A stretch of 63,521 bases of DNA, the filler included, from Sphacelaria rigidula (Eukaryota): the NCBI GenBank assembly GCA_964200075.2. It is 10 parts of 10 records of this genome, joined end to end, with 100 filler letters (N's around TTAATTAATTAA, not from the genome) between each part and the next. Parts side by side here need not be neighbours in the genome. Positions count along the whole stretch, not along the records: positions 6,364 to 12,625 come from CAXNAA020021149.1; 9 more parts are not named here. One strand, 5' to 3'. Under the pieces are notes generated by a model. It was not told the DNA's origin. It was given only the letters and a program-made list of their open reading frames with translations, and searched no databases. The first letter of the stretch is position 1. Every line of letters starts with the position of its first letter. Position numbers and translations under genes: made by a program. Positions 4,701-63,521 of this stretch are shown here, piece by piece.

Positions 4701-6263
4701 ATGGGTTCGTTGAGTGTGCACCATGTGGGTAGCATGCATGGATAATACATGAGGTTTGTGATGAGTCTCTTTTCATGCGAAAGTTGATCGTCGCCGCTGC
4801 CTGGGAAAGTATGTTCGTTAACTCGAACAAAAAAAAGGGTACATCCGTTATGTTCAGTCCGCGCGAGTAACCAGTTGATTTAAATATGCCTGGGTAGTGT
4901 TCTAGTTTTCAAGTCCTCGGAACGATGTCCCAAAATCTATTGTTCACGGATAGTTCTCATCATGCTGCCCTGTATTACGCGTGTAGTCCATAGTTGCACC
5001 ACTCACACTTTGTCTTGCCAGTCGTGTGAGTGCTCAGGCTTGTGGTTATTACTTGCCAGCCTCCTGTGCGGATAATAATTCGGTGTTTCTCAGGACCGTG
5101 TGATCGCTACGGGGACATGTCTTGGGCTACAATCCGTACTGTACGGATCATCTGTATTCAGTAGTACATAAATGTACGGGTAATAGGTACGGGTACCGCA
5201 GTGCCTATGCCGGTGGAACAGAATGGGGTGTTGATCCCACCGCCGCTGGTCAAGGGTAGTTACTTACCTTCGTTCGCTAGGGTGATGCGCTATGCGACTT
5301 CGTCCAAATCATGTGGGGTAACTGGAGTATGTCTACCATGCAAGGAAGCCAACATAAAAAAAAGCAATCTGCGGACCCTGTAGGGCAGTTTGCTGAGACA
5401 TTGATGAGCAAAAATCTGGCACTGGGTGCACACATTGTTCTGCAGTGAGGCAGACAGCCGCTACCACCAATCACCGAGGATACAGCAGCTCCGTGCTGGG
5501 TCAATCTTTTTGCCTCAACCTATATGCACCTATCTTGCGTGTCTTCTGCGGTACTACGAGTATAGTTACTGCAGACCGAACAGACAGCTGCAGACTCGTC
5601 ACCTGATTATTTGAAAACTTGATTCTGCAGCATTTTGACCTCACCCAGTGTGTGTGCGGACGGAAACAGAGCATGCAGCGGTACAACTGCTCGCGCATTC
5701 TTTAGCGCACATCGCACCGACGTTGCCGTAGAGAGTTTAGAGGCACTACAGCACCGCAACGACTACCGCATTGAGATGACGGCGTCGGGAAGCGCCTAGC
5801 TTGATCACTCGATGCGCAACAACCCACACCCGCTGAAGGTTTGAATATTTGAACAGACAGTAAACAGAACTGCGTGCCTTCCACTATTTCTCACAGAGGA
5901 GAACGTAGTGACAAACACAAAACAGCTCATATGTAGCCTCAGCGGAGGTAAATTTGATACTGAGTGATTGCGTTTGCCTCTTCTGCTCTCTCGGAATTTG
6001 GGCACCATGTCACACAAGAAAAGTAAATGTATTGGTTAGGTGTGGAAGGTAGCCTCTAGATGGGTTGCTCTGGGTACGCAAGACATCCTAGGACCCCGTA
6101 CAACTGTATGCAACGGCTACCGTCATAATACAACTCTTTACATAACGCCAAGACCAAGCATACCTTCTTGTTTGTCGAGTCGATTAGCTTGCAGAAGATC
6201 GGCACGCAATGAGCATTGCGTATAGCATGTAGGTTATCCTTGGTGAAGGGTGGGTGATGTCGC

Positions 6264-6363
6264 NNNNNNNNNNNNNNNNNNNNNNNNNNNNNNNNNNNNN
6301 NNNNNNNTTAATTAATTAANNNNNNNNNNNNNNNNNNNNNNNNNNNNNNNNNNNNNNNNNNNN
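6264..6363. other. Artificial scaffold-joining linker (N44-TTAATTAATTAA-N44)
   Basis: Identical 100-bp pattern recurs every 6362 bp; the 12-mer has stops in all six frames. Confidence 0.98.
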
Positions 6364-6602
6364 ACTTAAGGCGAATGATCAAAGCCACTCTCAATCGTAT
6401 CATCTACTCTCAATCTCACGAAAAGACTGTTGAGTGTGGCAGGTCGTTTGACATACTTTTGAGCCTCTTTTTTCGGGCCATCAAATATCCCTCCCCCCTA
6501 TCATAGGATGACTCTTGCAATTATTCCACACCCTGGACAATACAATATGTTTCCAATATAAACTAGTCGATCATATTGGAATATTGCGATATATTGCTGG
6601 TG

Positions 6603-6902
6603 TAATATATATATATATATTGGTACCCTCAGACTGCACATGTATTGCGCGCCCAATATATATTGATGTCGTGGGACTGCATACATACTGCCTGCCCAGT
6701 ATATATATATATATATATATATATATTGGTACTATTGGGTTGAACACTTATTGTCCCATCAATATGTTTTGGGGCAGCGTGGACGACAGCATATTGCATG
6801 ACCAATACATATTAGGGTCGCATTGATTAGAACATATTGACCGGTCAATATATATATTGGTTCTGCGTGGGTGACAATGTATTGGCCGGTCAATATATAT
6901 TA
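6603..6902. repeat. Left repeat-spacer block (about 7 units of ATATTG-N6/7-CAATATATATTG plus unique spacer)
   Basis: Core starts at 6603, 6654, 6697, 6760, 6803, 6846, 6891. Spacing is about 43 bp once (TA)n expansions inside the cores are discounted. Confidence 0.85.
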
Positions 6903-7340
6903 GATATTATAAGTATCGTGTACGCTGTAGGAGAGATCCAGACGCGATGGATGCCGGAGCCCGTGCAGATTGGGAAACGCTATAAAGGGAGCCGCAGAAG
7001 TTTGCGTGCATTACTTCGGAAAGTTGTGGAATGCGTTTGATATATATATATGTGTGTGCGTGTATTATACTGGTTAGAAAATATGGTGACAGAAGAGGCG
7101 ACCCGGTATATATGCCTCTTGATACCTATTAGGCCACCGGTGCAGGGCCGCCCATCCCCTTTCCAGCATGTAATATAAACATCTTGGCTAAACATCACGA
7201 CGACAGAAAACACGGGTCGATATGCGCCTTTTGGTACCCCTGTGGTCACCGGGGCTGTGTTGCTTATACCCTGGACATTATAATGGGTTCCAATATGATA
7301 CCAATACTTTGTATTGGAGCCAGCGCAAATATTGTCCCTT

Positions 7341-8197
7341 CAATATATTTTGTGTTGAGATGTCCTCGGAGATATCGAAGCAACAACATATATTGCTCGT
7401 GTCATGATCATGAAGTAATGTATGTCAACATATATTGGACATGTAGTTGCGCCGAGAATAAAACATTCAATATATATTGTGCATGCCGGCCGTGTATGTA
7501 TTGAAGTGTCAATACATATTGAGTCGCGACGATGCGTAGCATATTGTTACCATAATATATATTGAACGCAAACCATGCAGAAGTATTGTTTTTCCAATAT
7601 GTATTGCGCACGCTGATCGGATAGCTATTGTGCAGCCAATATATATTGAACACGCTTGAGGAGGAGTACATTGAGTATTTTCGGCATGTAAAATACGTCT
7701 TTGAATGGCGCCCGCGAACAAAGAACTGCCCACTATACTAATTCCAATATAATTTCCAATCCATATGTTGAAAATCAATATATTTTGCAACATCAACATA
7801 TATTGTGACCGTCGGTTCCCTCGTGTGTTGTCCGCCCAATATATATTGGACGCATTGATGCACGACATATTGGGGCGGCAATATATATTGGCGCTTCGGG
7901 TGTCGAGTATATTGAATCGTCAATATATATTGACCTCCGGGGGCAGCAAATATATTACTCGATAAATATATATTGGTGCATTTTCCCACCAACATATTAC
8001 TCGGCTAATATATTTTGAGGTGGCACGTGTCGTGATATATTGTTCGGTCGATATATATTGCATGTCACGAGCCTTGATATATTGATGACACAATACATAT
8101 TGACCCTCTCTCGTGTCATCATACTGCTCGCCCAATATATATTGACCACCCGACGCGTCGATATATTGAGCGGGCAATATATATATATATATATATT
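7341..8197. repeat. Regularly interspaced short palindromic repeat array (18 units, 42-43 bp period, unique spacers)
   Basis: 12-bp palindromic core CAATATATATTG (0-2 mismatches) at 7341, 7384, 7426, 7468, 7510, 7553, 7595, 7637, then 7794, 7837, 7879, 7921, 7964, 8006, 8049, 8091, 8133, 8175. Intervening sequences all differ apart from a conserved ATATTG half-site 6-7 nt before most cores. Confidence 0.92.
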
Positions 8198-8221
8198 ACA
8201 TATTGTATTGTCCAGGGTGTG

Positions 8222-9161
8222 AATTATTCCGATGTCAGGAGGTCATGGATAATGACAAGTTGGGAGGACAGACAAGAGTGCTCTACGATCAACCGCATGT
8301 CGTTCCATCCGAGACCCACGCCATCAACCACCGACAGCAAGGGTCTTGTGGCTTTCACGCGACACTGTCGGCAGTACGACAGGCAAACCGGATCATAGCT
8401 ACCTTTCGTTGCTCTACTGCACGGACTCCCGTCTGCTCAGAGGTGGTCACGGTAACAACATGCACCGAAGTCGCAACAGCTGTGAAAGCTAGAGAGTTTG
8501 ATGTTTATGAACTACATCCACACAATTCAAACGACTCTCAAAACCTGAGGAAAGGTGGCCGCTTCGGGCCCAGTTAAACATCCGAAGATATCATCGAACA
8601 GCAATGCCAAACGTTTCTGGGATCGGCATCAGGCAGTCATCGAAGAGCGGAAAATGAATCGATAAGTTACTGATCGTATTAGAAACCAATGCGCATGGAA
8701 CGCTTTGCAGGGGTTGAAAAACATTTATTTTGATAGAATAAACTCTCCGGGCCTCCGTTTGTGTTGTATTCGCCTGTAAATAATATTTCCTCGTTCATCA
8801 ATACCTGGCTGGGGGACAGGGAAGCCGTCCCCCCTCAGGGTTTGAGAATCGTTTGAATTGTGTGGATGCAGTTCATAAACATCAAACTCTCTAGCTTTCA
8901 CAGCTGTTGCGACTTCGGTGCGTGTTGTTACCGTGACCACCTCTGAGCAGATGGGAGTACGTGCAGTAGAGCAACGAAAGGTAGCTATAATCCGGTTTGC
9001 CTGTCGTACTGCCGACAGTGTCGCGTGAAAGCCACAAGACCCTTGCTGTCGGTGGTTGATGGCGTGGGTCTCGAATGGAACGACATGTGGTTGATCGTAG
9101 AGCACTCTTGTCTGTCCTCCCAACTTGTCATAATCCATGACCTCCTGACATCAGAATGATT
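8222..9161. repeat. Long inverted repeat (arms 8222-8550 and 8833-9161, 282-bp loop)
   Basis: Arms are near-identical reverse complements; ORFs 8203..8577(+) and 8725..9138(-) give almost the same peptide. Mixed-frame peptides 'PDHSYLS' and 'EVATAVKAR' weakly recall the post-RT region of RTE-clade LINEs. Confidence 0.9.
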
Positions 9162-10599
9162 ACTCATTATGAGAAGCTACTCGTACTGTTGTCCCTATTA
9201 TTGAGGTGTTTACGCGGCCAGCCTGTGCTGCAGATTGCGGCATGGCCAGACTCCTATGCGCCACGCTAGCAACAGTTAGGTCACCACCTTAGGTATCGTG
9301 TTTCACTCCGCATGTCAAGAAGGTCTCTACAAGTGTTTGGTTTCTCATACACCCACTTCAACTGGCGTGTGGTACGCTCTTCTGCTCGGGCACCCGGTTA
9401 GGGGGAGGTCGGGGAAAATCAACGATGCAGAACACCCCCTAAGTTCAAATTGGATCCATCTGTTATTGCCGCAGCACCGTCCTTGCTGGCATGTGTGTGA
9501 CAGAGAACAATAGGATCGGTGACGGGAACATTGCCCTGTTTTTCAACGACATGTTTTTCAGCGCACAGAGGCGCGTCCTGTTCAAAAGAAGAGGCAGAGA
9601 GAAATCGATCTTCGCGTTCGTAAGCTCGACAGGCAAGAAGAGACGGAATCTCTCCGCACGTCGACGTTCTGGCACATGGAAAGTTTGGCACACGCTGGTG
9701 CAATAATATCGATAATGCCAGTTGCTCGAGAGATATTATTGGTAGTCGCCGAGCGAGGACACACAAAGGACACGGGCGAGGAGCTTCCTCTCTGTCGTTG
9801 CTTCTGTCTCTGGTGATATCGTCATCGACACGTGTGTACACCGCATTCGTTAGGTGCACCTAGCCACAGCTGCTTAACTGCTGTGGATATTTGGGGGGGA
9901 AGATGACTTCGCTCGGTCGTAAGTATTTCGCGTCTTCCCCGCAGAAGAGAAATGCCACTTCAACCTCATTTTTTGGATGGACCCCATTTTCTAGGACCCA
10001 CTGTTTCTTGTGCTATGCGTTTGTAATTTCGATCATCATATAGATTTCGCCTCCTCACACCAGCCTCTTCTCGAGGGGGCGCACTCGCGGCCCTAGTCAT
10101 CCACGGAAACAAGGGTTCCGAATCCCGTAGATTGTTTGTCTCAATATTGTGCCCCTGCTTTTCTCTTCACAAACATTTAGGAAATGCGTATCAAAACTGG
10201 GCAAATAAATGGCGTACAAAATACTGTGGTGACACATCTGCGAGTATGTACCGAGATACGAATCAGGGCACCATTTATCGCCCAGATATTCGCCATATAA
10301 GGAGTCTGTATACTACAACACTGAAGCAAAGAGATCGGTTCCCCAGAAAATCATCTCGAAGCTACCATGGCACGCACGATACCCATCGGACCTGTGGCAC
10401 TGACACGTTTACGGTTGAGATCAGTCACCAGGCAAAACCTCAATATCAACCATAGCCGCTACCACATCCGAACGTAGAAGCAATGAAAACAAACTTATTG
10501 TGTGAAAAAAAACATCAACGATTTGACACCACCATATGAGTTCGTCAGTGTGTCGATCTCTGTAGGTGGTAACACGAAGCCAGTAGGACTCGAGTACAC

Positions 10600-11150
10600 G
10601 CTAACAGGGATGAGCAAAAAAGGTTACGGATAGTTAGGGTAGAAGGCCTCTGACTTGTCCGTGCACTACTTCGTTTTTACTATTGTCGCAATTGCGTTGG
10701 TTACCATAATCTCTGCACGAATGCTGTGGTGGCGGATCTTAAAGTGTCGGGAAATAAACCTGAAATTAGCGACTGCAAGCGAACACGCGGCATATTCATT
10801 CATGTATGCATTGACTGTACTGTACATACTGGCTCACCGTTGTCGAACAGCAAAACGCAGGATGATGACAGCAAGCGGTATCCAGCACAAGCGATGATCA
10901 GTTCAACACAGAACAGCTCATCCTGGATGTCAGGGTGTCTTGGTTATAGCTTCAGGGGCGATTCAGTTCTGCTTTGTAGTACTGGCGTTTACCAGCACTT
11001 TTCCAAGTATACACCAGGGTGTGCCGGCTGGGATTCGTCCACGAAGAACCGAATTCAAGCCGGATATGACGAGGCATGTTCACGTATCCGTCACCAACGG
11101 ATCCAAACATACTCACTCCTGACTGCGGCTCTTGTCAGTTCCCGCAGTCA
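10600..11150 (-). pseudogene. Decayed Copia-type RT/RNase H fragment
   Basis: Minus-strand 'NAYMNEYAACSLAVANFRFISRHFKIRHHSIRAEI' resembles the Copia RNase H 'DNQAAIALAKNP..HSRTKHIDIRHHFIRE' motif. Upstream 'WTNPS' recalls RT 'MSNPS'. Many stops and frameshifts. Confidence 0.45.
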
Positions 11151-12625
11151 GTCCTCCGGGTCATGTATTCATCAGATCGACGGGTTCATCATCGTTCTGC
11201 CCTACCACCACTACGCCGCAATCCATAACAGAAATACATCCGACTATAGTGCGTAGATTGTCACTTATACACTCTAGCTTCACGCCCTCCACTGAGTGAA
11301 CAGGTACCACGTCTTAACTGAAATAATGGGGACTGTGAATTAACAGCGCTACTCGCTCAAGTTTCAACTAGCCGCTGGCACGAGCAGGATATCCATGGTT
11401 TTGCAGCTAATCAGTAGCTTCGCAGAAACAACTATGAAAACACGGGCGACGAGCGGCGAAACCGCAAGTCCAACGCCCACCCCTGGCTGATGAGGAGACC
11501 TCGCAGTAGCGCCGCCGGACGCACGAATATTCCGGTATACAGTTTTCTTCCCTTCATAACCCTGGGGGTTGTTGTCAACAATGTGAACCCTCACATTGAG
11601 GAGCACGGGGGCTTGAATTACGTTGAAATCTCATTTCAATCGGTGAGCATTTAAAAAAACGTTGATCTGTAGCATGCAGCAGCAGGGACTTTCCTTGAGG
11701 AGCGGGAAATGCGAGCAACGAAGCCAAGGCTAGCACCACGTGAGGATGAGAGCACAAGTTCCGGCGTATAGATCAACCAGCACGCATATAGTGAACACGA
11801 CATGGTGTACGTTGTAATTTGCGGCCAGGGGTTACTGTCTGAAGGTTCGATCTTCTGATGTCGTGCAGTGAAACGACAAATCTTCGTGTACACCCCCTTC
11901 ATTACTTCGAGTTGTGGTGAGCATGTGCTGCATAATGTTTATAATGATTTTCACTATGCCATAAGCGATTGGCAGTTGGATTGCGGCGTTCGGCGGTTCA
12001 GCGCCAAGCGCCCCACTGAAAATATGCCAGGGAAAAACGTTTTTCTTCATTCAATTGTCCAGCCATCGACCTCCACGATGTGTTCGAAAGACGCAGAATT
12101 GCAAAACCACGTGGTACCAACGAAGTGGACGAGACGAAAACGAGTAGAAAACATCCGAGTGAGTCTAATACTGACTTGCCTAGGGCAATGCGTGTGTGTA
12201 TTGTCTGTTGGAAATAAATCTTTTTCGTAGATGCATACAACTTGAGCGGTAGATCAAGTTACGGTTCAGCATGAACAGCAACATACGTAGAACGTAGAAC
12301 ATACAGTACAAACGGGTATTGACTGTAGGGTTACGCAGGATTGATGAGTGGGTAGGTCGGACTGTTTTTGTCAGAATAGTGGAGAGCTTGAGTCGAGGAG
12401 TCTATAGTATCAAGCGTTTATGGATGTAGAGTGCATGGTGATAGAGTTCAGGTCGTACAGTTTATAGTACGAAAGGTTTTGTTGGGATGGCACAGTTTTC
12501 TGAGATGCCACCTTGTGGTCACCCTCCATTTTTTGCACTCAATCAAGCCTTTATTTTCATTATTATTTTTATATCCATCACATTAGCTCGATCTCTCGAA
12601 CCCGTGGTCACAGAGTGCAAGGAGC

Positions 12626-19241: not shown

Positions 19242-19464
19242 TGTGATGAGTTAGAGGACCGCGTGCTTAGAGGATCGTATCAGAATTTCAACACCCCTAT
19301 GGTTAGGGTTAGGGTTAGGGTTAGGGTTAGGGTTAATGTTGGGGTTGGAGTCAAGGGCGTGGTCTTTACAGGGACTGGCCCGATTGATTTTGAACGAAGT
19401 CGATCCTGAAGTGTTTTGGACTACGATGCGATCCCCTAAGCACGCGGTCCTCTCACGCATTGCA
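19242..19464. mobile_element. MITE carrying telomere-type repeats, copy 1
   Basis: TIR consensus TGTAATGCGTGAGAGGACCGCGTGCTTAGAGG; internal (TTAGGG)5 at 19303-19332. Confidence 0.8.
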
Positions 19465-20850: not shown

Positions 20851-21035
20851 CTGTAATGCGTGGGAGGACCGCGTGCTTAGAGGACCGCATAGTAGTTCAA
20901 AACCAGTCGCGAGTCGCTGCAGGAACCACGCCCCTGACCCTAACCCCAACACTAAGTCTCACCCTAACCCTAGCCCTAGGGGTGTTAGAATTCCGATGCG
21001 ATCCCCGAAGCACGCGGTCGTCCCACGCACTACAG
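20851..21035. mobile_element. MITE carrying telomere-type repeats, copy 2 (opposite orientation, internally shortened)
   Basis: CTGTAATGCGTGGGAGGACCGCGTGCTTAG ... AAGCACGCGGTCGTCCCACGCACTACAG; degenerate CCCTAA units inside. Confidence 0.8.
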
Positions 21036-27559: not shown

Positions 27560-28013
27560 TAGCGAATCTGTCTGGTTTCTTCTGGAATTACCTGAGCTGC
27601 TGCACTGCTCTTGTGTTCGGAACAACTATAGTCGGCATGCAGTGCTGTCTTATCAAAGTTGAAATGCAATATGTGTTTGTTGGATGTTGTGTCTTTCTCC
27701 ACGAACAAGGCCCTTGGTGCACAGACCCAGTATTTCTGTGCCGTAGCTGACACGGTAGTGTGGTGCGTTGGAACCCTGCACAGACGGTGCGATCTGCGCC
27801 GGGGATTTGAGTGAATTGCTGTACTGTTCGGGATGCAAATGGGGGGGGGGGGGGGTGGTTTCCGAAAGTTTCCCGGGTGGTGAAATGAGAGTTCGAAACG
27901 GTGGTTGGGTCCAGGTCGGTAGCCAAGNNNNNNNNNNGGCTGGGGGGTGGGGGTTGGGCGGGGCGGCAGGGGGGGGGGGGGCGGTGGGGGGTGTTTTTGG
28001 GGTTTTGTGGGGT

Positions 28014-28048
<35 letters not shown>

Positions 28049-31811: not shown

Positions 31812-31987
31812 GGGGGGGGGCGGGGGGGGGGTTGAGATTGGGGGCAATTTCTAACGGGCAGATTTTTGTGCAGATCTCAAAAGTCAAACCTCTTAAAGTG
31901 TAGAGCTTAATTAACTTGTACACGCCAAAGAGCCCGAGGGAGACAAATGCCAATGGCAACTGTCTATTACTAGCGGCAAAAAAGCCG

Positions 31988-38908: not shown

Positions 38909-38937
<29 letters not shown>

Positions 38938-39303
38938 TTATCATCATCAAAAAAACAATATAAAAAATAATAATAGCAATAATAGCAATAATAACCATAA
39001 TCATAATCATCATAATCATCATCATAATCATAGTCATAATAATAATCATAGTCATAATAACCATAATCATAATCAAAATAATAATAATCATCATAATCAT
39101 AATAGTCATAATCATAATAATCATCATGATCATCATAATAATCATCATCATGATCATCATCATAATCATCATAATTATCATCATCATCATCATCATCATA
39201 GTCATTATCATGGTCATTATAATCATAATCATAATCAAAAGAATAATAATCATTATCGTAATCATGATCATAGCCATAATAACCATAATCATAATAAAAA
39301 AAG

Positions 39304-39352
<49 letters not shown>

Positions 39353-39655
39353 AATAATAATAATAATAAAGATAATAATAATAAAGATCATAATAATAAA
39401 GATAATAATAATAATGATGATAATTGAAATAAGCATAATCATCATAATCGTTATCATAATCATAATCATAATAACCATAATCATAATCAAAATAATAATC
39501 ATAATCATAATCATAATCATAATCATAATAATCATCATGATAATCATAATAACCATCATGATAGTCATAATAATCATAACAATCACAATAATCGTAATGA
39601 TGATGATAATGATAATGATAATCATAATCATAATCATAATCATAATCATAATATT
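38909..39655. repeat. Compound (CAT)n/(AAT)n/(CATAAT)n microsatellite, about 750 bp
   Basis: Directly visible; source of the His/Asn, Ile/Met and Tyr/Asp low-complexity ORFs. Confidence 0.97.
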
Positions 39656-52048: not shown

Positions 52049-52329
52049 GACACAAACCGGGTAAATTTCATCTTATTTCGGACACTCTCTCTCGACTATT
52101 CGCTTTTCAGCAACGGCAAGAAGCTGAAATCAAACCATTGCTGACACCAATATGTCGTAATGTGCCAGATGATCTCGCGTTGCGAACAGCAAGACCACAA
52201 CCCAGTTTCAAATATCAGCTGATAAGCTTGACTAACAATAACAATTGCAAACTCACAGAGAGCTGTTTACCGTGAAACCAGTATGCGTGAGCGCCGCAAA
52301 CGTCTCCATGTCAGTCGGCCGTGAAAAAT

Positions 52330-53460
52330 TGCAAAAAGAGCAGGCACTCGAGTACGGACCTCACATCCGATATATCACCGACGAGAACGATTCAACACCA
52401 GAGAAAGAGTCGATTGCATCCATGTCATACTTTTCAGTACAATACGGAGTGCTTTTTAAAATCATACCTTCCGGGGCACATGAAAAAACGAAGTACATTC
52501 CGTGACCAACTAGCATTACCGAAGTCTTTGGTTGGCTTTGTGCTACACTCATATCATGACCATGCGCTGTCCGGAGGCCACTTGGGATTCAAGATAACGT
52601 TCGAAAAACAATCGCCACAAAAAGTACTGGGCATCAATGGACCGCGATATCAAGGATTGGTGCCCTGAATGTCAAGAATGCCAACGCCGAAAAACGGCCC
52701 ACAGCCGGCCAAACTTACCGATGGGATCCGTTCCAGTAGAACAACCATACGAAGACTATCGGCAGATCTGGTCGGATACAAAACAGCTTCGATGTCAAAC
52801 GCTGGAGTACTATGTAAATGTGCACTGTCCGTAATGAACCACCTCACTAGGTGTGCCCTGCTTGTTCCGGTGCTCAATGAAGAGGCTACGTCGATCGCCG
52901 AAACTCTCATTGATTGAGTGTTCACCACATTTGGCATTCCGGAAAAGCTGCACTCCGACCAAGGCGCCGAGTTTGAAAACAAGCTAATATATGCACTGCA
53001 ACCAGAGGTGGGTTTCAACAAAACTCGCACGATACCGTTACGCCCGCAAGGCAATTCAGTGACGGAACGAGTTCCCTCTACTATGCACGCGATGCTAGCT
53101 ACGCATATTTCAGTTGGAAACAAAAATTGGGCGCTCCTGCTCCCGTTTGTGCAAGTGGCGTACAACACGTCATATCACAACACGGTGCACGAGACGCCAC
53201 ACCTTTTAATGTTCGGAAGATAGCTTAGATTGCCAGTTGGCTTCATCTTAACCCTTAGACCGCAGTGCGGGTAGTCCATCTAGATCACGCACACATTTGA
53301 CCTTACGAGACAAGCTTTAGGAGAAAGAGCGAATGAGCAAAGAATCTAGAACAAATAAAAAACACACCCAGTGTCCAAAACCCGGTCAAAACGTGCTTCT
53401 TTACAGACCGTACCAGGACTCAAAAGGTCAGAATACGAAACTTCAATTACCATGGAGAGG
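52330..53460 (+). pseudogene. Gypsy (Ty3) integrase, disrupted
   Basis: HHCC finger 'HDHALSGGHLG...CPECQECQRRK'. DDE core 'SADLVG', 'FGIPEKLHSDQGAEFEN', 'RPQGNSVTER', then 'WALLLPFVQVAYNTSYH..VHETPHLLMFGR'. Contains frameshifts, stops and a piggyBac-MITE end at TTAA 53248. Confidence 0.93.
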
Positions 53461-57259: not shown

Positions 57260-57292
<33 letters not shown>

Positions 57293-57428
57293 GTCATCAC
57301 CATCGTCATCATCACCATCGTCATCGTCATCATCGTTATCATCGTCATCATCGTCATCATCGTCATCATCATCATCATTATCATCATTATCATCATCATC
57401 AACAACAACAACAACAACAACAACAACA
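57260..57428. repeat. (ATC)n/(AAC)n microsatellite
   Basis: Directly visible. Confidence 0.95.
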
Positions 57429-57546: not shown

Positions 57547-59475
57547 CTAGAGCATAAGCAACAACCATCGATACGTTCGTTGAACCACGGCTTTCACGTA
57601 TTCCTTCCTCACCGGTGGCGGACCTGCTTGGCGCGACTACTTCCACCTCTCTCTACAGGCACAACTGCGACTTGTCAACATGAGCGAGGTCAGCTAACAG
57701 CTAACCCGAAGAAGTACAGTACATGAACGGACAGAGTATCATCTACTCCAGGCTACAGACGCTCCAACCCCTGGCAACGAACGGCAATGAAACACCAGAG
57801 GAGTACCGATACGATTATAAGGGATGTGGCAACCCTTCCCACATACTTTCACCGACAACGGGAGTGTGTCACACATCACACATCACACATCACCTTCCGC
57901 ACGGCTCCCACGCTCGAACTTCTCGGACGTCCTCTCAGTCTCGAACTCGCCAGCCGAACCTCAGATTCCATTTCTCCCCCGGCTACACTCCTCCTTTGCC
58001 GCCTGACCCTACGTCAACAGCACATCGTAAGCCAGTGAACGGCGGGTTCGTCACTGGTTTATTAGTCGGGAGGAACGTAGTGGTAATCGTCTTGTTCCAG
58101 TATACCTGGATAATAGACATCTTCCCTCCTACTTTCCACTTAAACCGTGGAACGGATTCATCTGAATCCTCACTGTGCTTTCACGCGTAGCTCCGTGTCC
58201 TACCTATGACGAAGGATGTTCAGACCGCTACAGATTAATGTGGGAATGGTCCGTTGATTATAGGTACTGCCGATGTCATTTCAGCGCAGTATTGGACTTA
58301 AGTGTAGACATCGAAATCCGGATCTTTGAAGGGGGCTGTGCTCCTGGCGTGCTTCTAGCGTGCGCATAACGTGTTTTAATCTAAATCGGCGCCTGGGGCG
58401 CCGAGTTGAGGTCTGCCAACGCACACTTCGCCTAGGGAATACGCTGCACCCCCCTTGCTCGAGGGTTCTCGGTACGTCTTCGTTGGGGTTGGGGTGAGGA
58501 TAAGGGTTAGGGTAAGTGTTATTCGAAATGCATCAGCACCTGCACAAACCATTAATTTCCGAGAAATATCTGTCAACCACCAATCGGTAAAGTCACCTCA
58601 ACTAAAGTCACGTTATGTCTCCCACCCTTTTGCGGCCCGCCTGGATCTGCTTGATTTTGATTTATTTCTTCGTTGTCCCAGATTTAGGAGTCCTACTAAG
58701 GTGCCGGGCGTGGTCACTATAGACGTCTCAAAGGGAAATAAACGGAGACTTTGATGAGTGGGTTTTCTCCGCGGCAGAATCGTGTTGTCTCGGAAATAAA
58801 TCGTGAACCGCGAGCCTTGGTGAGCGAAAAATCCTGAAGTACAAATAGAAAAATACGATGTTGCGCAACTTTTGGTTGAAATCCACTTCAACATGCAGAG
58901 CGTACTGGCCCTGTACCATGAAGGCAGCACGATTAGAAGGAGAAATCGGCTTTTGATTGCTGCTTCGGCCGCGCAGCGCCTACGGCGCGATCCGCCCTAC
59001 ATGACGCTGGGGGTACACTCTGAAACGTCAGATTTGTCGTATGAAAGAGAAGCCATATGTAGCCCACCGTCCACTGCCGAAACGTAGGGATACTAGGAAC
59101 TGCCGCCAAGACTTGTTGAATGGATGCCGGTAAAAACACTCGAAACGAAGCCGAGGTGTTGATGTTTTTGTCCGACTTCAGAATCTGTGCAACATTCACC
59201 TAAGATGTGTGTGTCACGCCATAGGGGCTACACCTCCAAGCACCATATACAACATTTTCCCCATATATATGTTTCATGTACAGTACGGGTGAGTCATCAC
59301 CCAGCCATATTTTCCGCCCGACATCATCCGATTGAACCAACACATAGATGTATGCCCCCTCCATCACTGTACCAAGTTTTTCGACGTAGAATAAATCCAT
59401 TCATGCGAGAAACGAGGAAATCATATTCCAAGATACGCGGGTGGCACGCCGAAATGCTCCTTCCAAGCAACTCAC

Positions 59476-62201
59476 CTGCCAGCCGCAACAATATCGACGT
59501 TATCCGCTGTGCCGGGCCGCTTCCTAGAGGCGTCCACCCTCTCCGCCATAGACTCCTCTCGGTCTGTTTCTGAAAGGTGTGCACTGCTGTTAATGCTGCT
59601 GCTTCTGACATCGTTCTTAGAAGGTGCGGAGAATTTTCCGGATGCCCGAGCGTGGAACCCGAGGACGCGTAACACCTCGTCCAACTGTTGCGCTCGTTTC
59701 TTGTTGGGAATCATTAGAGTCTGTTCTGCCCGTTTTGATTCAGTGTGCGGCGATGCATGTGGGTTTAGAACAAAGCAAATGTTTTACCGTAGAAAGGGGC
59801 ACATGAGCTCGATTGCGAGACAGCGGACACTACGCGATGATTGCGGATTAATTCACACATTGTAAAACGTAGCAGAAAAAACGTGTCGGGGAATGATGGA
59901 ACCGAAGACCTCAGATGAAATGCGTAATACACATTTTCATAGCGTATACCTAGACCCATTAAGTCGAAGCCCTACCCGCGATTCACATCCCGACCCCAAC
60001 CGCCCTTCTGTCCGTGTGTGGACGGGGTGGTATTCCTATCGCGCATATTTGTTGAACGAAAACATGCAAGTCGAATAGTGTGTTGACATTCATGGAAGCG
60101 TACATTACGCATTTTTAACGGCCCACTACGGCTCAGGATAAACCCCTCCAGGGCAACGTTCGAGTCGGATTAGGAGTGCGGTACTTGTTGGGGAGCGATC
60201 ACATGCGAGCCATTAAAACGCCCGACAAACCACCACACCAAAATAAATTATAAATTAACCGGCAAGTACTACGTCGGTTAGACCGAAAACATTATTGCTG
60301 CTCGTGGGCCGAGGCTACGCGCGTGTTACGCGTCACGTCGTTTCCCGCTTCGAAAGTAAGCGTGACGTACATCAAATACTCTTGACGTGCGTAAGTTTGT
60401 GTGACCCGGCGCACCTCCACTCTCTCCCTCTGGTCATGTGAAATAGGTAAGTGAGGGTCCAGGCGGCCGTTCCTGATGTCCTTGACGAGTTTGCGCCAGT
60501 GACGCTCGAAAAACACCGCGTGTCTGCCCGTGTAGGTGGACCGAAGGTGCGAGAAGGCATGAAGAGATAGATATAGATCGAAACTGTTCGAGGCCGAGGC
60601 TCGCTTAGCGGATGAGAAATTTCTCTTCTGAAATATTTTTGATTTCAATGTCGATCACTGATTTGACCGCGACAAGGTGAGATGTCATCGGAAGGGTCGG
60701 GAAAATCGCCAAAACTGACGAAATATGACGGAAACATCGCTAAGAAGTAAAACACTATTTTATATCGGTTCATCTCCATTTCTTGCCGCACAAGAACCCC
60801 CCCCCCCATGGTCTTATGGCTATATGGCATGCATGATCATGAATACTCCCCCCCCCCTCCTCCCCTCAGGAAAACTGTGAAACGCATTTTTTTTTTTAAC
60901 ATGAACCTTACGGCCATAACGCGGGCACTGAGTTTAGTTGGTGGTCATGCAAGCATAAACAAGGATACGCGCAAAGCACATGCAGATTTAGTGACAAAAT
61001 ACCGCAAGCCGTTTCCCCCTGTAGGACTGTCGCGAGGGTACCGTGCATCAACCACTGGCGCGGGCATCACACAGCGCACGACATCCTAAACGCGCGTTTC
61101 TCTATCCCTTCACTGAAGTGGATGGCTTGCACAGACCTACCCCTCTAAGTACTAAACAAATGCACTTCCTGACCAGCGGGAACGGGGCACCGAGGGCGTG
61201 CGTGACGGGCTCAGAAATCTGCTTCACTCGAAAGATGGTCGATAGACGTGACTTTTTTCTCGTAGTGACACCATATTTCCGCCGGTGGTTGATTGATTGA
61301 TATACTGAGTGACTGTTGCACATGAACAGATGGATCTCGAAGGGAAGCAGCCGTGGTCACATTATAGACCTCAACACTCGCTGAATGGCCGACAGTGAAT
61401 GCCGGGAGGGCGACCGATCTGATGGTGTGTACGTGTAGCGACGGCGACCATGCCTCGTCGTGTCTTCATGGTCGACTAATCCCAACGCCGAAATAGCGAT
61501 GTGTCTTACGGCATTGCTCTCCACTCTCTACCAGCTGGGCCCGTACCGTAGTCTCCTCTCACCAGCTTAGCGGACGAAATGAGTGGAGTGATGAGTACGT
61601 CTCAACCACAAAACAACGCTTTCCCTGATCTCAAACTAATTATGCACGATGACTTTCCTTGTCGACCTCATGACCCTCGATTGCGTGGATACTTCTTCAG
61701 CGGCTTTCATCGACTCTGTGCGCCAACAGCGCTGAATTGATGTGCCATTTGCCTCCGTGTTGTGATCCTTGAACTAGGAGCTGCGGATGCACAGAGTTGA
61801 GTGGAAGCCGCTCAAAAGTACGTACGTAATCGAGGGGCATAATGCCGGCAGGAAACATTTTTTGGGTTTCATTAGATTTTGTTCAGAGAAAGCGCTGTTT
61901 TGGTTTGAGACCCATTTCGTGACTGGAATGTGTGAGGATTGTCAGACGAAAATTGTCCCTTGTACGAGGTAGGCTGTACTGGGAAAGCAAGCGTGCGTTC
62001 CGTGACAAAAAAAACAAGAAGTTCTACTCACCATTCCCCGTGGCTTTAAGGGTGCCCTTCTGTGATCGTGTCATGCTTCAGTAAGGTACTGCACCTGGCC
62101 ACGAAGTTTGTGATCTTCTTGTTATCCTCCAGTAACCCCAGTCGTGTATCCGAAAGGGACCTGAGCAAGTACAGGTACAGCCCTACAGGATCCATCGTTG
62201 C
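59476..62201 (-). CDS. Partial multi-exon GH3-family (acyl acid amido synthetase-like / GH3 domain) gene. Exons 62201-62095, 60523-60415, 59720-59476
   Basis: CAG/GT boundaries with compatible phases splice to ATMDPVGLYLYLLRSLSDTRLGLLEDNKKITNFVARHAVFFERHWRKLVKDIRNGRLDPHLPISHDQRERVETLMIPNKKRAQQLDEVL... The motifs 'LY..LL..L', 'E.HW..L..DIR.G.L' and 'PN..RA..L' occur in GH3-domain order. Confidence 0.78.
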
Positions 62202-63521
62202 CTGCGAGTTGAGATAGAACCGGCGGTTCGATTTCACACCAAGCGTTGAAAACTACCCAAGCGACGCCACAAATTTCACATGAAGCGATATAAGAAATGC
62301 TGAAGTGACCGTTCAGGAGGCATATGTGAGCGACCGTGAGGGGAAGGGGAGGGGGGGGGGGGGGGGGGGGATTTTTCCCGGGGCCTTGGTGAGAAAACCA
62401 AAAAAAAGGGGGAGGTTTTTTCTTTACTATGAAGANNNNNNNNNNAAAGGAGAGAGAGGGGGGGCTGGAGGGGGGGGCGAGGGGGCGTGAATGGGGGAGG
62501 TAGGGGGGGGGGGAGGGCCGCAGAGAATCTTCTCCGAGACTATCGTACGACATCGCAATAACAGGGAGAGATTTTACCTTACACTGTAGACACAGTAGAA
62601 CATGGCGAAATATATTTTCAGAGCTTCAACGTGACTTTACCAGCAATCTACGCCTGAGAAACATCACCCCAACTCAAAACATTCGGGGCTGGGCTATTTC
62701 CCGCAGCTGCAGTCATACTCCATAGATGGGGGAGGGGCGACGGGGGGAGGAGAGGGGGCAGGGAGGGCGTACTCATCATCTTGCATGCCGTAGTCGTGTG
62801 GCCATTGACCACGACATAGGTATGCCCCCTACCATCGGAGGAAGCTCTCTGTCTTTCTCGTCACACCACTCCGATCTAAACTTGATAAAACTGCGCGCGC
62901 GGGGGGGGGGGGGGGGGGGGGGGGTGGGGAACTTTCAATTCTTTGTATCTCTTTTCAGCGGTCGGTTTCATTCTCGAGCCAACCTTAAGCACTCCTCCAT
63001 TGACGAAGGGAATGGGGTCCGAAATGGAGAAGCCGCGGTGAACTTCTTTCTTGCTCGGCACGGCCGCAAGAGATACCCTCCAGTCCGACCGAGCTTCGTT
63101 TGCAGCAAGATCGGCTTGCACTGGGGCGCCACGCAAAAGTGCGGGGAAAACAAAGACGCCGACGGGGGAAGAACGCTGGCACGATCAGAACATGTTTTTT
63201 TCTATGACCAGCAGGTGGTAAACTTCATTTGAAGTTTTTTTTTTCTTCAAAAAGCGACAACGTGAAGAAGATCACGTTCACGTCCTCGTATTATCAGATA
63301 ATTACCTTGTTGCTGACCTGCAATACTTTTACAACCCATAAATAAAATAGGTGGATTCCCGCAACCCCTGATGTACGCCGACCAGGGATGTCTTATTCAG
63401 AGGGAAAATATGATGATGCTGTGTCGTTCAAGTGAGATAGGCTTATTCAGCTATGGGTAACCCACCCTACGGTCGGGGGGGGGGGTGTACTCATGATCGT
63501 GCATACCCTAGTCACCTTGGG

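What the first reader, a model, noticed from the sequence alone, without database searches (positions are those of the whole stretch)
7341..8197. CRISPR-like regularly interspaced palindromic repeat-spacer array inside a eukaryotic DNA transposon
Seen: 18 copies of a 12-bp palindrome (CAATATATATTG) at a strict 42-43 bp period, in two blocks (7341-7648 and 7794-8197), plus about 7 more at 6603-6902. Each unit is ATATTG-N6/7-CAATATATATTG, which can form a small hairpin with a variable loop, followed by a 17-19 nt spacer. Spacers are mostly GC-rich and mutually different (e.g. TGCATGCCGGCCGTGTAT, AGTCGCGACGATGCGTAGC, GACGCATTGATGCACGAC, GCGCTTCGGGTGTCGAGT, ACCTCCGGGGGCAGCAAAT, AGGTGGCACGTGTCGTGAT, ACCACCCGACGCGTCGAT). 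An ordinary minisatellite would have homologous units throughout; here length and core are conserved while spacer sequence is free. Inference: most conservatively these are phased protein-binding sites (42 bp is about four helical turns), akin to the subterminal repeats of CACTA and foldback elements, though here they fill most of the element in one orientation. Alternatives are a nucleosome-positioning or bending track, or a precursor processed into small RNAs. No cas or nuclease gene is present.
Basis: partly seen in the sequence, partly recalled or inferred. Interest (0 to 1): 0.85.

Follow-up and report, generated by a model that had tools for sequence, protein, structure and literature searches.

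The report
Transposon packed with phased palindromic binding-site repeats
This is a gene-less, high-copy cut-and-paste transposon of an alga whose interior is a regular array of one short palindrome, most likely docking sites for its transposase, and it is not a CRISPR-like memory because the copies examined carry the same spacers in the same order.

Summary
Positions 6527-8221 hold a 1695-bp element with perfect 24-bp terminal inverted repeats and a perfect 8-bp target-site duplication. About 63% of it consists of 25 units of 42-43 bp. Each unit has a 12-bp palindrome, a roughly 17-19-nt spacer with near-random columns, an ATATTG half-site and a 6-nt GC-rich gap.

The CRISPR-like reading fails. 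Contigs from public runs of the same alga, an independent "algae metagenome" study and a second organism lie on the arrays at 80-99% identity, often without gaps. Out-of-register identity inside the window copy is only 0.42-0.55, so these copies share the same spacers in the same order. Copies differ by point changes, by skips of exactly one 42-bp unit and by skips of whole modules. There is no cas gene, no coding signal and no significant hairpin covariation.

The best reading is a non-autonomous transposon with an 8-bp duplication, possibly hAT-like. It is built from three "end-leader + array" modules. The arrays would be phased (about four helical turns) multi-copy binding sites for the mobilising transposase. 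This resembles the Muta1 and Galileo repeats and the Hermes/Tol2 "palindrome plus third site" module. Binding is inferred, and no transposase was found. I rate it a new variant of a known kind, of modest interest.

The parts
6519..6526 (.). left copy of the 8-bp target-site duplication AATTATTC
   Evidence: Identical 8-mer directly flanks both TIRs. The paralogous right arm of the host foldback has a single related 8-mer.
6527..6550 (+). 5' terminal inverted repeat, 24 bp, perfect; its inner half carries two CAATA motifs
6551..6610 (+). leader 1: 5' subterminal region with CAATAT/ATATTG motifs in both orientations
   Evidence: Motif track; alignment A1.
6611..6933 (+). array A: 7 units of 43-45 bp (63 bp where an (AT)n run is expanded)
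6934..7261 (.). motif-free internal segment that belongs to the repeated family
   Evidence: No TATTG/CAATA motifs. Contigs of other copies run through part of it, for example 7147-7673 (table 8).
7262..7340 (+). leader 2: degenerate internal copy of the 5' end (TIR-like plus subterminal)
   Evidence: Aligns with leaders 1 and 3 at 67% mean column identity.
7341..7679 (+). array B: 8 units, mean period 42.29; the first three units lack a clear half-site
7680..7734 (.). short motif-free linker
7735..7793 (+). leader 3: second degenerate copy of the 5' subterminal leader
7794..8197 (+). array C: 10 units, mean period 42.33; the last core is expanded to (AT)n and abuts the 3' TIR
8198..8221 (-). 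3' terminal inverted repeat, 24 bp, perfect
8222..8229 (.). right copy of the 8-bp target-site duplication
8222..9161 (.). host of the insertion: a foldback-type inverted repeat (arms 8222-8550 and 8833-9161, 329 nt, 96% complementary); the element sits at or within a few bases of its left tip
   Evidence: flanks read

Best explanation
SHOWN. Positions 6527-8221 hold one copy of a repeated, gene-less cut-and-paste DNA transposon family of an alga. It has 24-bp perfect TIRs and an 8-bp target-site duplication, and it inserted at the tip of an older foldback element. It consists of three tandem modules. Each module is a copy of the 5' end leader (only the first is intact) followed by a unidirectional array of 42-43-bp units. 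A unit is a 12-bp palindrome, a sequence-free spacer of fixed length, and a third half-site 6 bp before the next palindrome. The spacers are a fixed, inherited set shared by the other copies examined and by copies in a second organism.

INFERRED. The TATTG-based motifs also form the inner half of both TIRs. I read them as recognition sites for the DNA-binding domain of the unidentified transposase that mobilises the family. A dimer would sit on each palindrome and a further subunit on the third half-site. The 42.3-bp period (4 turns of about 10.6 bp) would put all sites on one face of the helix, so that many subunits bind cooperatively. That would raise the element's affinity for transposase and its chance of synapsis and excision. 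Because the core is a palindrome, a one-way array presents the same sites to both ends. Selection among transposing lineages would keep motif and spacing while spacers drift. Diverged spacers may also protect the array from unequal recombination. After insertion the copy decays neutrally.
For: TIR and TSD. There were 0 chance matches to the TIR in 100 shuffles.

Motif enrichment and phasing: cores with up to 1 mismatch number 19 inside the element against 1 outside, with shuffle mean 0.10. TATTG occurs 41 times and CAATA 23 times in 1695 nt, against 1.45 expected for each from the rest of the window. Both TIRs contain two such pentamers. Block periods are 42.29 and 42.33.

Conservation profile: motif columns 1.1-1.9 bits; spacer columns 0.0-0.3 bits apart from three at 0.4-0.8. 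Length is held to 42-43 bp in 22 of 25 units although the spacers are essentially unalignable.

Family evidence:
- 52-108 contigs (counted up to 128) cover each of the 20 listed places in run X1, with similar numbers in X3, an independent study.
- Organism B (X10) has pieces at about 85-92% identity with 0-4 gaps.
- Several pieces are ungapped at about 80% identity over 256-351 nt.
- Out-of-register identity inside the window copy is only 0.42-0.55, so these are the same spacers in register.
- At all 6 listed places that fall in a core or half-site (6748, 6808, 7515, 7601, 8006, 8096), the majority of copies carry the canonical motif letter that the window copy has lost.

Module structure: three leaders align at 67% mean column identity. 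Joints in other copies skip whole modules or exactly 42 bp (table 5).

Published analogues:
- Muta1: 12-bp subterminal repeats with variable 3-4-bp linkers, where more repeats give more transposase binding and more excision (PMC5499845, passages).
- Hermes: a left-end quasi-palindrome bound cooperatively by two BED domains plus a third site, with 'exact phasing crucial'.
- Tol2: a palindrome plus a third antisense site (both from bioRxiv 10.1101/2022.09.16.508221, passages).
Against: - No transposase or autonomous partner was found. None of the 56 ORFs scanned (of 173 ORFs of 90 aa or more) had a transposase hit, and no genome is held. Binding is therefore pure inference.
- The arrays fill 63% of the element and all point one way, unlike the classical subterminal or foldback repeats, which are inverted at the two ends.
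- The first three units of block B lack the half-site.
- The 'majority restores the motif' result is expected for any private mutation. It only shows that the family's common sequence has cleaner motifs.
- I saw only 40 of 817 variable places and 15 of 261 joints, so a per-column comparison of cores and spacers across copies was not possible.
- Some joints have a shorter side under 30 letters, which the tool warns may come from repeats.
Confidence: 0.62

Rival explanations
1. A functionless old minisatellite carried by the transposon. A 42-mer was tandemly amplified long ago. Spacers decayed, while the AT palindromes persisted for mutational or structural reasons such as (AT)n slippage or conversion between palindromes. 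The array merely hitch-hikes.
For: Slight residual spacer similarity: mean local score 4.24 against 3.93, and 5 pairs with 9 or more of 10 letters against about 0.7 expected. The 6-nt gap is weakly conserved. Cores expand into (AT)8-13 at three places. Copies lose exact 42-bp units.
Against: Slippage does not explain the conserved CA...TG ends of the core, the separate half-site, or the presence of the same pentamer in both TIRs. Neutral decay to unalignable spacers should also have scrambled unit length, yet 22 of 25 units are 42-43 bp.
Confidence: 0.15
2. Sites for a host protein or a chromatin or DNA-structure function. Examples are nucleosome positioning, matrix attachment, an unwinding or origin-like track, or cruciform-prone AT palindromes alternating with GC-rich spacers. 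The transposon spreads this function.
For: Sharp alternation of 17% GC cores and 57% GC spacers at a period of four helical turns. Palindromic AT cores. Single strands of array C fold better than shuffles, with z of -5.5 and -6.6 from core-core pairing.
Against: The motif is part of the element's own TIRs, which points to the transposition machinery. Of the 17 listed places inside the arrays where the window copy departs from the family majority, 6 are motif positions and a 7th (7666) sits just before a degenerate half-site. That is 6-7 of 17 against about 43% expected if decay is uniform, so there is no sign of constraint on the inserted copy (small sample). No chromatin data are available.
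Confidence: 0.1
3. A transcribed precursor of structured or small RNAs, with each unit forming a small hairpin (ATATTG-N6-CAATAT).
For: The inverted half-sites can pair: 111 of 132 positions are Watson-Crick. Two of 6 unit hairpins folded as DNA beat all 200 shuffles.
Against: Covariation is not significant. Shuffled-partner p is 0.054 for pairing and 0.12 for the 3 compensatory changes. For 2 of those 3, the core-side change is private to the window copy; the half-site partners were not among the listed places. Unit hairpins are weak, at -0.7 to -6.4 kcal/mol. There was no Rfam match.
Confidence: 0.04
4. A CRISPR-like adaptive array that acquires new spacers from invaders.
For: Only the visual resemblance: a conserved palindromic repeat with length-constant, dissimilar spacers.
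Against: The same spacers in the same order occur in many copies, in an independent study and in a second organism. Variation is loss of units, not polar gain. The repeat is 12 bp plus a half-site. There is no cas or nuclease gene. The array is one copy of an interspersed transposon family, not a locus. The architecture pattern is absent from the viral, metagenome and prokaryotic genome collections.
Confidence: 0.01

Closest known systems
Muta1 (Mutator-like element of Aedes aegypti) and other 'type 2 foldback' ends
   Same: A short conserved repeat (12 bp) is iterated many times with non-conserved linkers. Sequence differences between the ends fall in the linkers. Repeat number raises transposase binding, cleavage and excision (PMC5499845, passages read).
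   Different: Muta1 repeats have a period of about 15-16 bp, lie inside long TIRs and are therefore inverted at the two ends. Here the period is 42-43 bp, the TIR is only 24 bp, the arrays all point one way and fill 63% of the element, and the core is a perfect palindrome.
Hermes and Tol2 (hAT) left-end recognition module
   Same: An 8-bp target duplication. A palindromic pair of subterminal repeats plus a third nearby site, bound cooperatively by BED domains, with exact phasing crucial. Tol2 has a perfect palindrome directly after the TIR and a third antisense site (bioRxiv 10.1101/2022.09.16.508221, passages). Read inward from the 3' TIR, this element likewise shows TIR, then palindrome, then a 6-nt gap, then an antisense half-site.
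   Different: In Hermes the module occurs once near one end. Here it is iterated about 25 times. No BED or hAT transposase is known for this family. The TIR does not begin with the hAT-type terminal consensus (that consensus is recalled, not checked in a call).
Galileo / Foldback / Tetris elements of Drosophila
   Same: Non-coding or non-autonomous elements dominated by internal tandem repeats. In Galileo the tandem repeats hold extra transposase (THAP) binding sites, proposed to give binding specificity (PMC3688188, passages). Tetris is modular with many rearranged forms (PMC4079207, abstract).
   Different: Their repeats are whole-unit homologous (136-220 bp) and form long inverted TIRs. Here only 17-20 of 42 positions are conserved and the orientation is direct.
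MULEs with tandem TIRs (maize, rice, tomato, Arabidopsis)
   Same: Elements carry extra, tandemly duplicated end sequences and still amplify (PMC3310237, abstract). This matches the three 'leader + array' modules here.
   Different: It is a different superfamily feature (long TIRs, and by my recall a 9-bp duplication). The internal leaders here are degenerate.
CRISPR arrays
   Same: A partly palindromic repeat alternating with length-constant, dissimilar spacers.
   Different: The spacers are a fixed set. The array is a multi-copy interspersed eukaryotic transposon. There are no cas genes and no leader-polar growth, and the repeat is too short.

Membership tests
Class II cut-and-paste (TIR) DNA transposon, non-autonomous | terminal inverted repeats | tested here: met
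   24 of 24 bp complementary; 0 chance matches in 100 shuffles
Class II cut-and-paste (TIR) DNA transposon, non-autonomous | target-site duplication directly flanking the TIRs | tested here: met
   8 of 8 bp AATTATTC on both sides. The paralogous foldback arm has one related 8-mer.
Class II cut-and-paste (TIR) DNA transposon, non-autonomous | many dispersed copies | tested here: met
   52-108 distinct contigs per listed place in X1, with similar numbers in X3. Depth is not a copy number.
Class II cut-and-paste (TIR) DNA transposon, non-autonomous | no transposase gene of its own, mobilised in trans | tested here: inconclusive
   Nothing in the element looks coding. The 2 array ORFs scanned had no Pfam hit and the 136-aa ORF has no homologue. 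The partner was not found, because no genome is held.
hAT superfamily | 8-bp target-site duplication | tested here: met
   The 8-bp rule for hAT comes from bioRxiv 10.1101/2022.09.16.508221. By my recall, 8 bp also occurs in P, Merlin and a few other superfamilies.
hAT superfamily | target preference nTnnnnAn (Ac family) or nnnTAnnn (Buster family) | tested here: inconclusive
   The single TSD AATTATTC fits nnnTAnnn and not nTnnnnAn. One site is not a test.
hAT superfamily | hAT-type terminal nucleotides of the TIR (consensus recalled as YARNG) | tested here: not met
   The TIR starts CACAC. The consensus itself is recalled, not from a call.
hAT superfamily | transposase with BED finger, DDE/RNase-H fold and hAT dimerisation domain | not testable with these tools
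   No autonomous copy is available.
Foldback / type 2 foldback elements | long TIRs made of tandem subrepeats, inverted at the two ends | tested here: not met
   The TIR is 24 bp. All three arrays have the same polarity (half-site before core).
CRISPR array | spacers differ between copies or strains, with polar acquisition | tested here: not met
   Copies lie at 80-99% in register. The differences seen are substitutions and unit losses.
CRISPR array | adjacent cas genes or leader | tested here: not met
   No Pfam hit near the array among the 56 ORFs scanned.
Minisatellite | head-to-tail units homologous over their whole length | tested here: not met
   TRF finds no 42-bp array at score 30. Out-of-register identity is 0.42-0.55. 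Spacer columns carry 0.0-0.3 bits apart from three at 0.4-0.8. Only weak residual similarity remains.

The most novel reading that the evidence does not exclude
The strict four-helical-turn phasing with sequence-free, length-locked spacers would mean the array is more than a pile of binding sites. Iterating a hAT-left-end-like 'palindrome plus third site' module about 25 times on one face of the DNA would nucleate a cooperative transposase lattice. That would make this gene-less element a super-competitor, or sponge, for the transposase of its autonomous partner. It would be a new cis-architecture by which a parasite of a transposon wins, or damps, transposition, using palindromic sites so that one unidirectional array serves both ends.
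Probability: 0.25. Interest if true: 0.5.

Novelty: new variant of a known kind. Interest (0 to 1): 0.3.

Why it matters
The finding removes a tempting false lead of a 'eukaryotic CRISPR-like array' by showing that the spacers are a fixed, inherited set.

What remains is a clean natural example of how cis-acting sites of a non-autonomous transposon evolve. Motif and helical phasing are kept while the intervening sequence is free. If the binding model holds, the family offers a ready-made series of natural variants for testing how site number and phasing control transposase recruitment. These variants include unit losses and one to three modules. Algae are a group where DNA transposons are, to my knowledge, little studied; I made no search on this.

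The conserved 12-mer is also a handle for finding the family's transposase.

Tried and rejected
- Own genome: none is held. I could not collect copies by TIR or find the autonomous partner.
- Collection scans: the two-core architecture pattern found 0 loci in viral, metagenome and prokaryotic genome contigs. The TIR 20-mer also found 0 loci in the same three collections. The eukaryotic family is simply not in these collections, so this says nothing about rarity in algae.
- Literature: searching for the core 12-mer and two TIR strings found 0 papers. Repeat libraries such as Repbase could not be searched, so 'undescribed' is not shown.
- Earlier notes of this scan: nothing for this genome or sequence and nothing for the first word set. 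One search gave analogous cases in other genomes only.
- RNA evidence: no RNA holder was listed. Run X6 is only guessed to be RNA. Its contigs overlap the element at depth 2.5-15.9, but this cannot show transcription.
- Rfam: 0 matches in the whole window.
- Coding reading of the 42-bp (14-codon) period: rejected. The 43-bp units break the frame. ORFs across the arrays are expected from stop-free cores and GC-rich spacers. There was no Pfam hit for 7509-7919(-) or 7133-7504(+), and no homologue at E of 0.001 or better among proteins of 74-238 residues, where 13 candidates shared words with the query.
- Collinear paralogy between blocks A, B and C: no diagonal appears in the all-against-all spacer matrix.
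- Excess of short palindromes inside spacers: marginal (6-mers 10 against 5.4, p=0.04; 10-mers 2 against 0.26, p=0.03). Only 6 of 23 spacers contribute, so I did not build on it.
- timed out and was rerun with faster code.

Full report
**Setting.** The window is not one stretch of genome. It is ten 6262-nt pieces joined by N44-TTAATTAATTAA-N44 linkers. The finding lies wholly in piece 2 (6364-12625). No genome is held for the window. Labels of public runs that hold the sequence point to an alga: organism names are coded, and one independent study is labelled 'algae metagenome'.

**Observation.** I read 5800-9200 and located every match to the core CAATATATATTG.
- Inside 6527-8221 there are 7 exact matches, 19 with up to 1 mismatch and 27 with up to 2. 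In the remaining ~62 kb the counts are 0, 1 and 3. In 500 dinucleotide shuffles of the element the count at up to 1 mismatch had mean 0.10 and maximum 2.
- The cores fall into three blocks: A at 6611-6933 (7 units), B at 7341-7679 (8 units) and C at 7794-8197 (10 units).
- Successive distances are 42 or 43 bp in B and C (means 42.29 and 42.33). In A they are 43-45 bp, or 63 bp where an (AT)n run has grown.
- Each unit is the core, then about 17-19 variable letters, then (AT)ATATTG, then 6 letters (6 in 20 of 22 units), then the next core.
- Column information content is 1.1-1.9 bits in core and half-site and 0.4-0.5 bits over CGG in the 6-nt gap. It is 0.0-0.3 bits in the long spacer apart from three columns at 0.4-0.8 (a random column has mean 0.13 and 99th percentile 0.50).
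- Tandem Repeats Finder sees no 42-bp array even at score 30.
- Cores are 17% GC and spacers 57% GC, with no CpG depletion (observed/expected 1.19).

**Are the spacers unrelated?** Almost.
- All-against-all local alignment of the first 18 nt of each spacer gives mean 4.24 against 3.93 for shuffled spacers. The standard deviation of shuffled means is 0.06, and the best pair scores 10.
- A global score matrix shows no collinear relation between blocks.
- Five pairs share 9 or more of 10 letters in either orientation, against about 0.7 expected.
- There is a marginal excess of short palindromes within spacers.

This is a faint trace of common descent, not an alignable 42-mer.

**The element.**
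- A perfect 24-bp inverted repeat sits at 6527-6550 and 8198-8221. The identical 8-mer AATTATTC lies directly outside both ends.
- The element sits at the left tip of a foldback-type inverted repeat, with arms 8222-8550 and 8833-9161, 329 nt, 96% complementary. The right arm of that foldback carries a single related 8-mer at the corresponding place, as expected of an uninterrupted paralogue.
- The interior is modular. Three 'leader' segments (6519-6625, 7254-7352, 7715-7806) align with 67% mean column identity. The first contains the working 5' TIR, and the other two are degenerate internal copies of the same end. Each leader is followed by an array.
- Arrays make up 1066 of 1695 bp, or 63%.
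- All arrays have the same polarity, with the half-site before the core.
- The pentamer TATTG occurs 41 times and its complement CAATA 23 times, against 1.45 expected for each. Two such pentamers form the inner half of each TIR.
- Read inward from the 3' end, the order is TIR, (expanded) palindrome, 6-nt gap, antisense half-site.

**Other copies.** I laid the contigs of four public runs on 6364-9300 at 80% or more likeness.
- X1 is the best holder. X3 is another study, labelled algae metagenome. X6 is a third study. X10 is a different organism B.
- Every bin of the element is covered in all four runs.
- At the 20 best-supported variable places inside the element, 52-108 distinct contigs (counted up to 128) cover each place in X1, with similar numbers in X3. 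The family is therefore highly repeated. The tool's depth figures are not copy numbers.
- Long pieces lie on the arrays with few or no gaps. In X1, 7322-7652 has 65 differences and 0 gaps, and 7335-7685 has 66 differences and 0 gaps.
- In organism B, 7307-7514 has 28 differences and 0 gaps, and 7962-8161 has 17 differences and 2 gaps.
- Within the window copy, any out-of-register ungapped comparison of 200-nt array segments gives only 0.42-0.55 identity. Matches at 80-99% must therefore be the same units with the same spacers in the same order.
- Of the 15 joints shown (of 261), two skip exactly 42 bp (7429>7472 and 7836>7879). Several skip whole modules (6555>7312, 6559>7339, 6626>7801). Some have a shorter side under 30 letters, which the tool flags as less safe.
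- Among the 20 listed places, six fall in a core or half-site (6748, 6808, 7515, 7601, 8006, 8096). At all six, the majority of copies carry the canonical motif letter that the window copy has lost.
- Counting 7666, which sits just before a degenerate half-site, 6-7 of the 17 listed places inside arrays are motif positions. That is about the 43% expected if the inserted copy decays evenly. The sample is small and is the tool's selection of 40 rows from 817.

**What this rules out.** A CRISPR-like memory needs spacers that differ between copies or strains and grow at one end. Here they are a fixed set carried by an interspersed transposon, shared between studies and with a second organism. Variation is by substitution and by loss of units.
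- No cas or other gene is present. I scanned 56 of the 173 ORFs of 90 aa or more. Only two weak, sub-threshold Pfam hits appeared, both far from the element.
- The architecture pattern and the TIR are absent from the viral, metagenome and prokaryotic genome collections.
- A coding reading of the 14-codon period fails. The 43-bp units break the frame, and there is no Pfam hit and no homologue.
- The hairpin reading is weak. 111 of 132 half-site/core positions pair, but partner shuffling gives p=0.054. The three compensatory changes give p=0.12. For two of the three, the core-side change is private to this copy.
- Unit hairpins fold at only -0.7 to -6.4 kcal/mol as DNA.
- The low folding energy of the whole array (z of -5.5 and -6.6) comes from palindromic cores pairing with each other.
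- There is no Rfam match.

**Most likely mechanism (inferred).** The motif shared by TIRs, leaders and arrays is the recognition sequence of the family's transposase.
- Each unit offers a palindrome for a dimer and a third half-site 6 bp away.
- The 42.3-bp period equals four turns of about 10.6 bp, so all units face the same side of the helix and can be bound cooperatively.
- Lineages that keep motif and spacing are mobilised more often, which explains clean cores in the common family sequence.
- Spacer letters are free, and divergent spacers may reduce unit loss by unequal recombination.
- That unit length stayed at 42-43 bp while spacers diverged beyond alignment argues for selection on spacing, not just on sites.
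- A palindromic core makes a one-way array equivalent from both ends. The polar half-site makes the two ends unequal, as in many transposons.

**Published parallels, from passages or abstracts I read.**
- Muta1 has nine 12-bp subterminal repeats with 3-4-bp linkers. End-to-end differences lie in the linkers, and more repeats give stronger binding, cleavage and excision (PMC5499845).
- Galileo's THAP domain binds sites inside the tandem repeats of its long TIRs, proposed to supply specificity (PMC3688188).
- The Hermes left end has a quasi-palindromic pair of subterminal repeats bound cooperatively by two BED domains plus a third site, with phasing crucial. Tol2 has a perfect palindrome after the TIR plus a third antisense site. 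hAT elements make 8-bp duplications with preference nTnnnnAn or nnnTAnnn (bioRxiv 10.1101/2022.09.16.508221).
- MULEs with tandem TIRs amplify successfully (PMC3310237, abstract).
- Tetris is a modular, rearranging foldback element with internal tandem repeats (PMC4079207, abstract).

Two earlier notes of this scan describe phased arrays of a conserved core with drifting spacers at transposon ends in rotifers. They are unchecked AI notes and serve only as leads.

**Membership.** The element meets the definition of a non-autonomous TIR transposon. Superfamily is open.
- The 8-bp duplication and the single target AATTATTC fit hAT of the Buster type.
- The TIR start CACAC does not fit the hAT terminal consensus as I recall it.
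- By my recall, 8 bp also occurs in other superfamilies.
- No transposase is available.
- It is not a foldback element in the strict sense (short TIR, direct arrays), not a minisatellite in the usual sense, and not a CRISPR array.

**Verdict.** This is a real and well-formed feature, ordinary in kind but unusual in degree and regularity: a transposon carrying iterated binding-site repeats. The family was not found in print by motif search, and repeat libraries could not be searched. I rate it a new variant of a known kind, with interest about 0.3. The strongest open point is whether the strict phasing reflects a cooperative transposase lattice. That needs the genome, the transposase and binding assays.

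Noticed in passing
window 6264-6363 and every 6362 nt thereafter: The window is a concatenation of ten 6262-nt pieces joined by N44-TTAATTAATTAA-N44 linkers. Neighbouring pieces need not be adjacent in the genome. Three further N10 gaps lie at 27928, 44949 and 62436.
   Followed up: yes
window 8222-9161: A foldback-type element with 329-nt arms that are 96% complementary around a 282-nt centre. It is itself highly repeated in the runs (summed depths several times those of the studied element). The studied transposon inserted at its left tip.
   Followed up: partly
window 6364-6431 and 9206-9300: Two short stretches with by far the highest summed contig depth in the runs (about 3.1 million and 1.4 million in X1, against about 0.1 million for the element). 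They have sharp boundaries at 6386, 6424/6431 and 9297-9299 where hundreds of contigs run on into unlike sequence. They are probably ends of very abundant short repeats.
   Followed up: no
window 19301-19346, 20932-20978, 58482-58521: Short interstitial telomere-like hexamer arrays, (GGTTAG)n and (CCCTAA)n, of about 7-8 copies.
   Followed up: no
window 38910-39652 and 57260-57428: A long degenerate hexamer microsatellite (AATCAT, about 110 copies) and an (ATC)n/(CAA)n tract.
   Followed up: no
window 27841-28045, 31812-31831, 62338-62929: Long G-rich and poly-G runs, some next to N10 gaps. These are possible assembly-edge artefacts or G-rich repeats.
   Followed up: no
window 52291-52668 (+) and 60292-60654 (-): Weak, sub-threshold Pfam hits. 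One is to the integrase zinc-binding domain (E=0.0043, a likely retroelement remnant). The other is to the GH3 N-terminal domain (E=0.0011).
   Followed up: no
window 7396-7405, 7523-7530, 8150-8159: Some spacers contain perfect GC-rich palindromes of 8-10 nt. The overall excess over dinucleotide shuffles is marginal (p about 0.03-0.04), and only 6 of 23 spacers contribute.
   Followed up: partly
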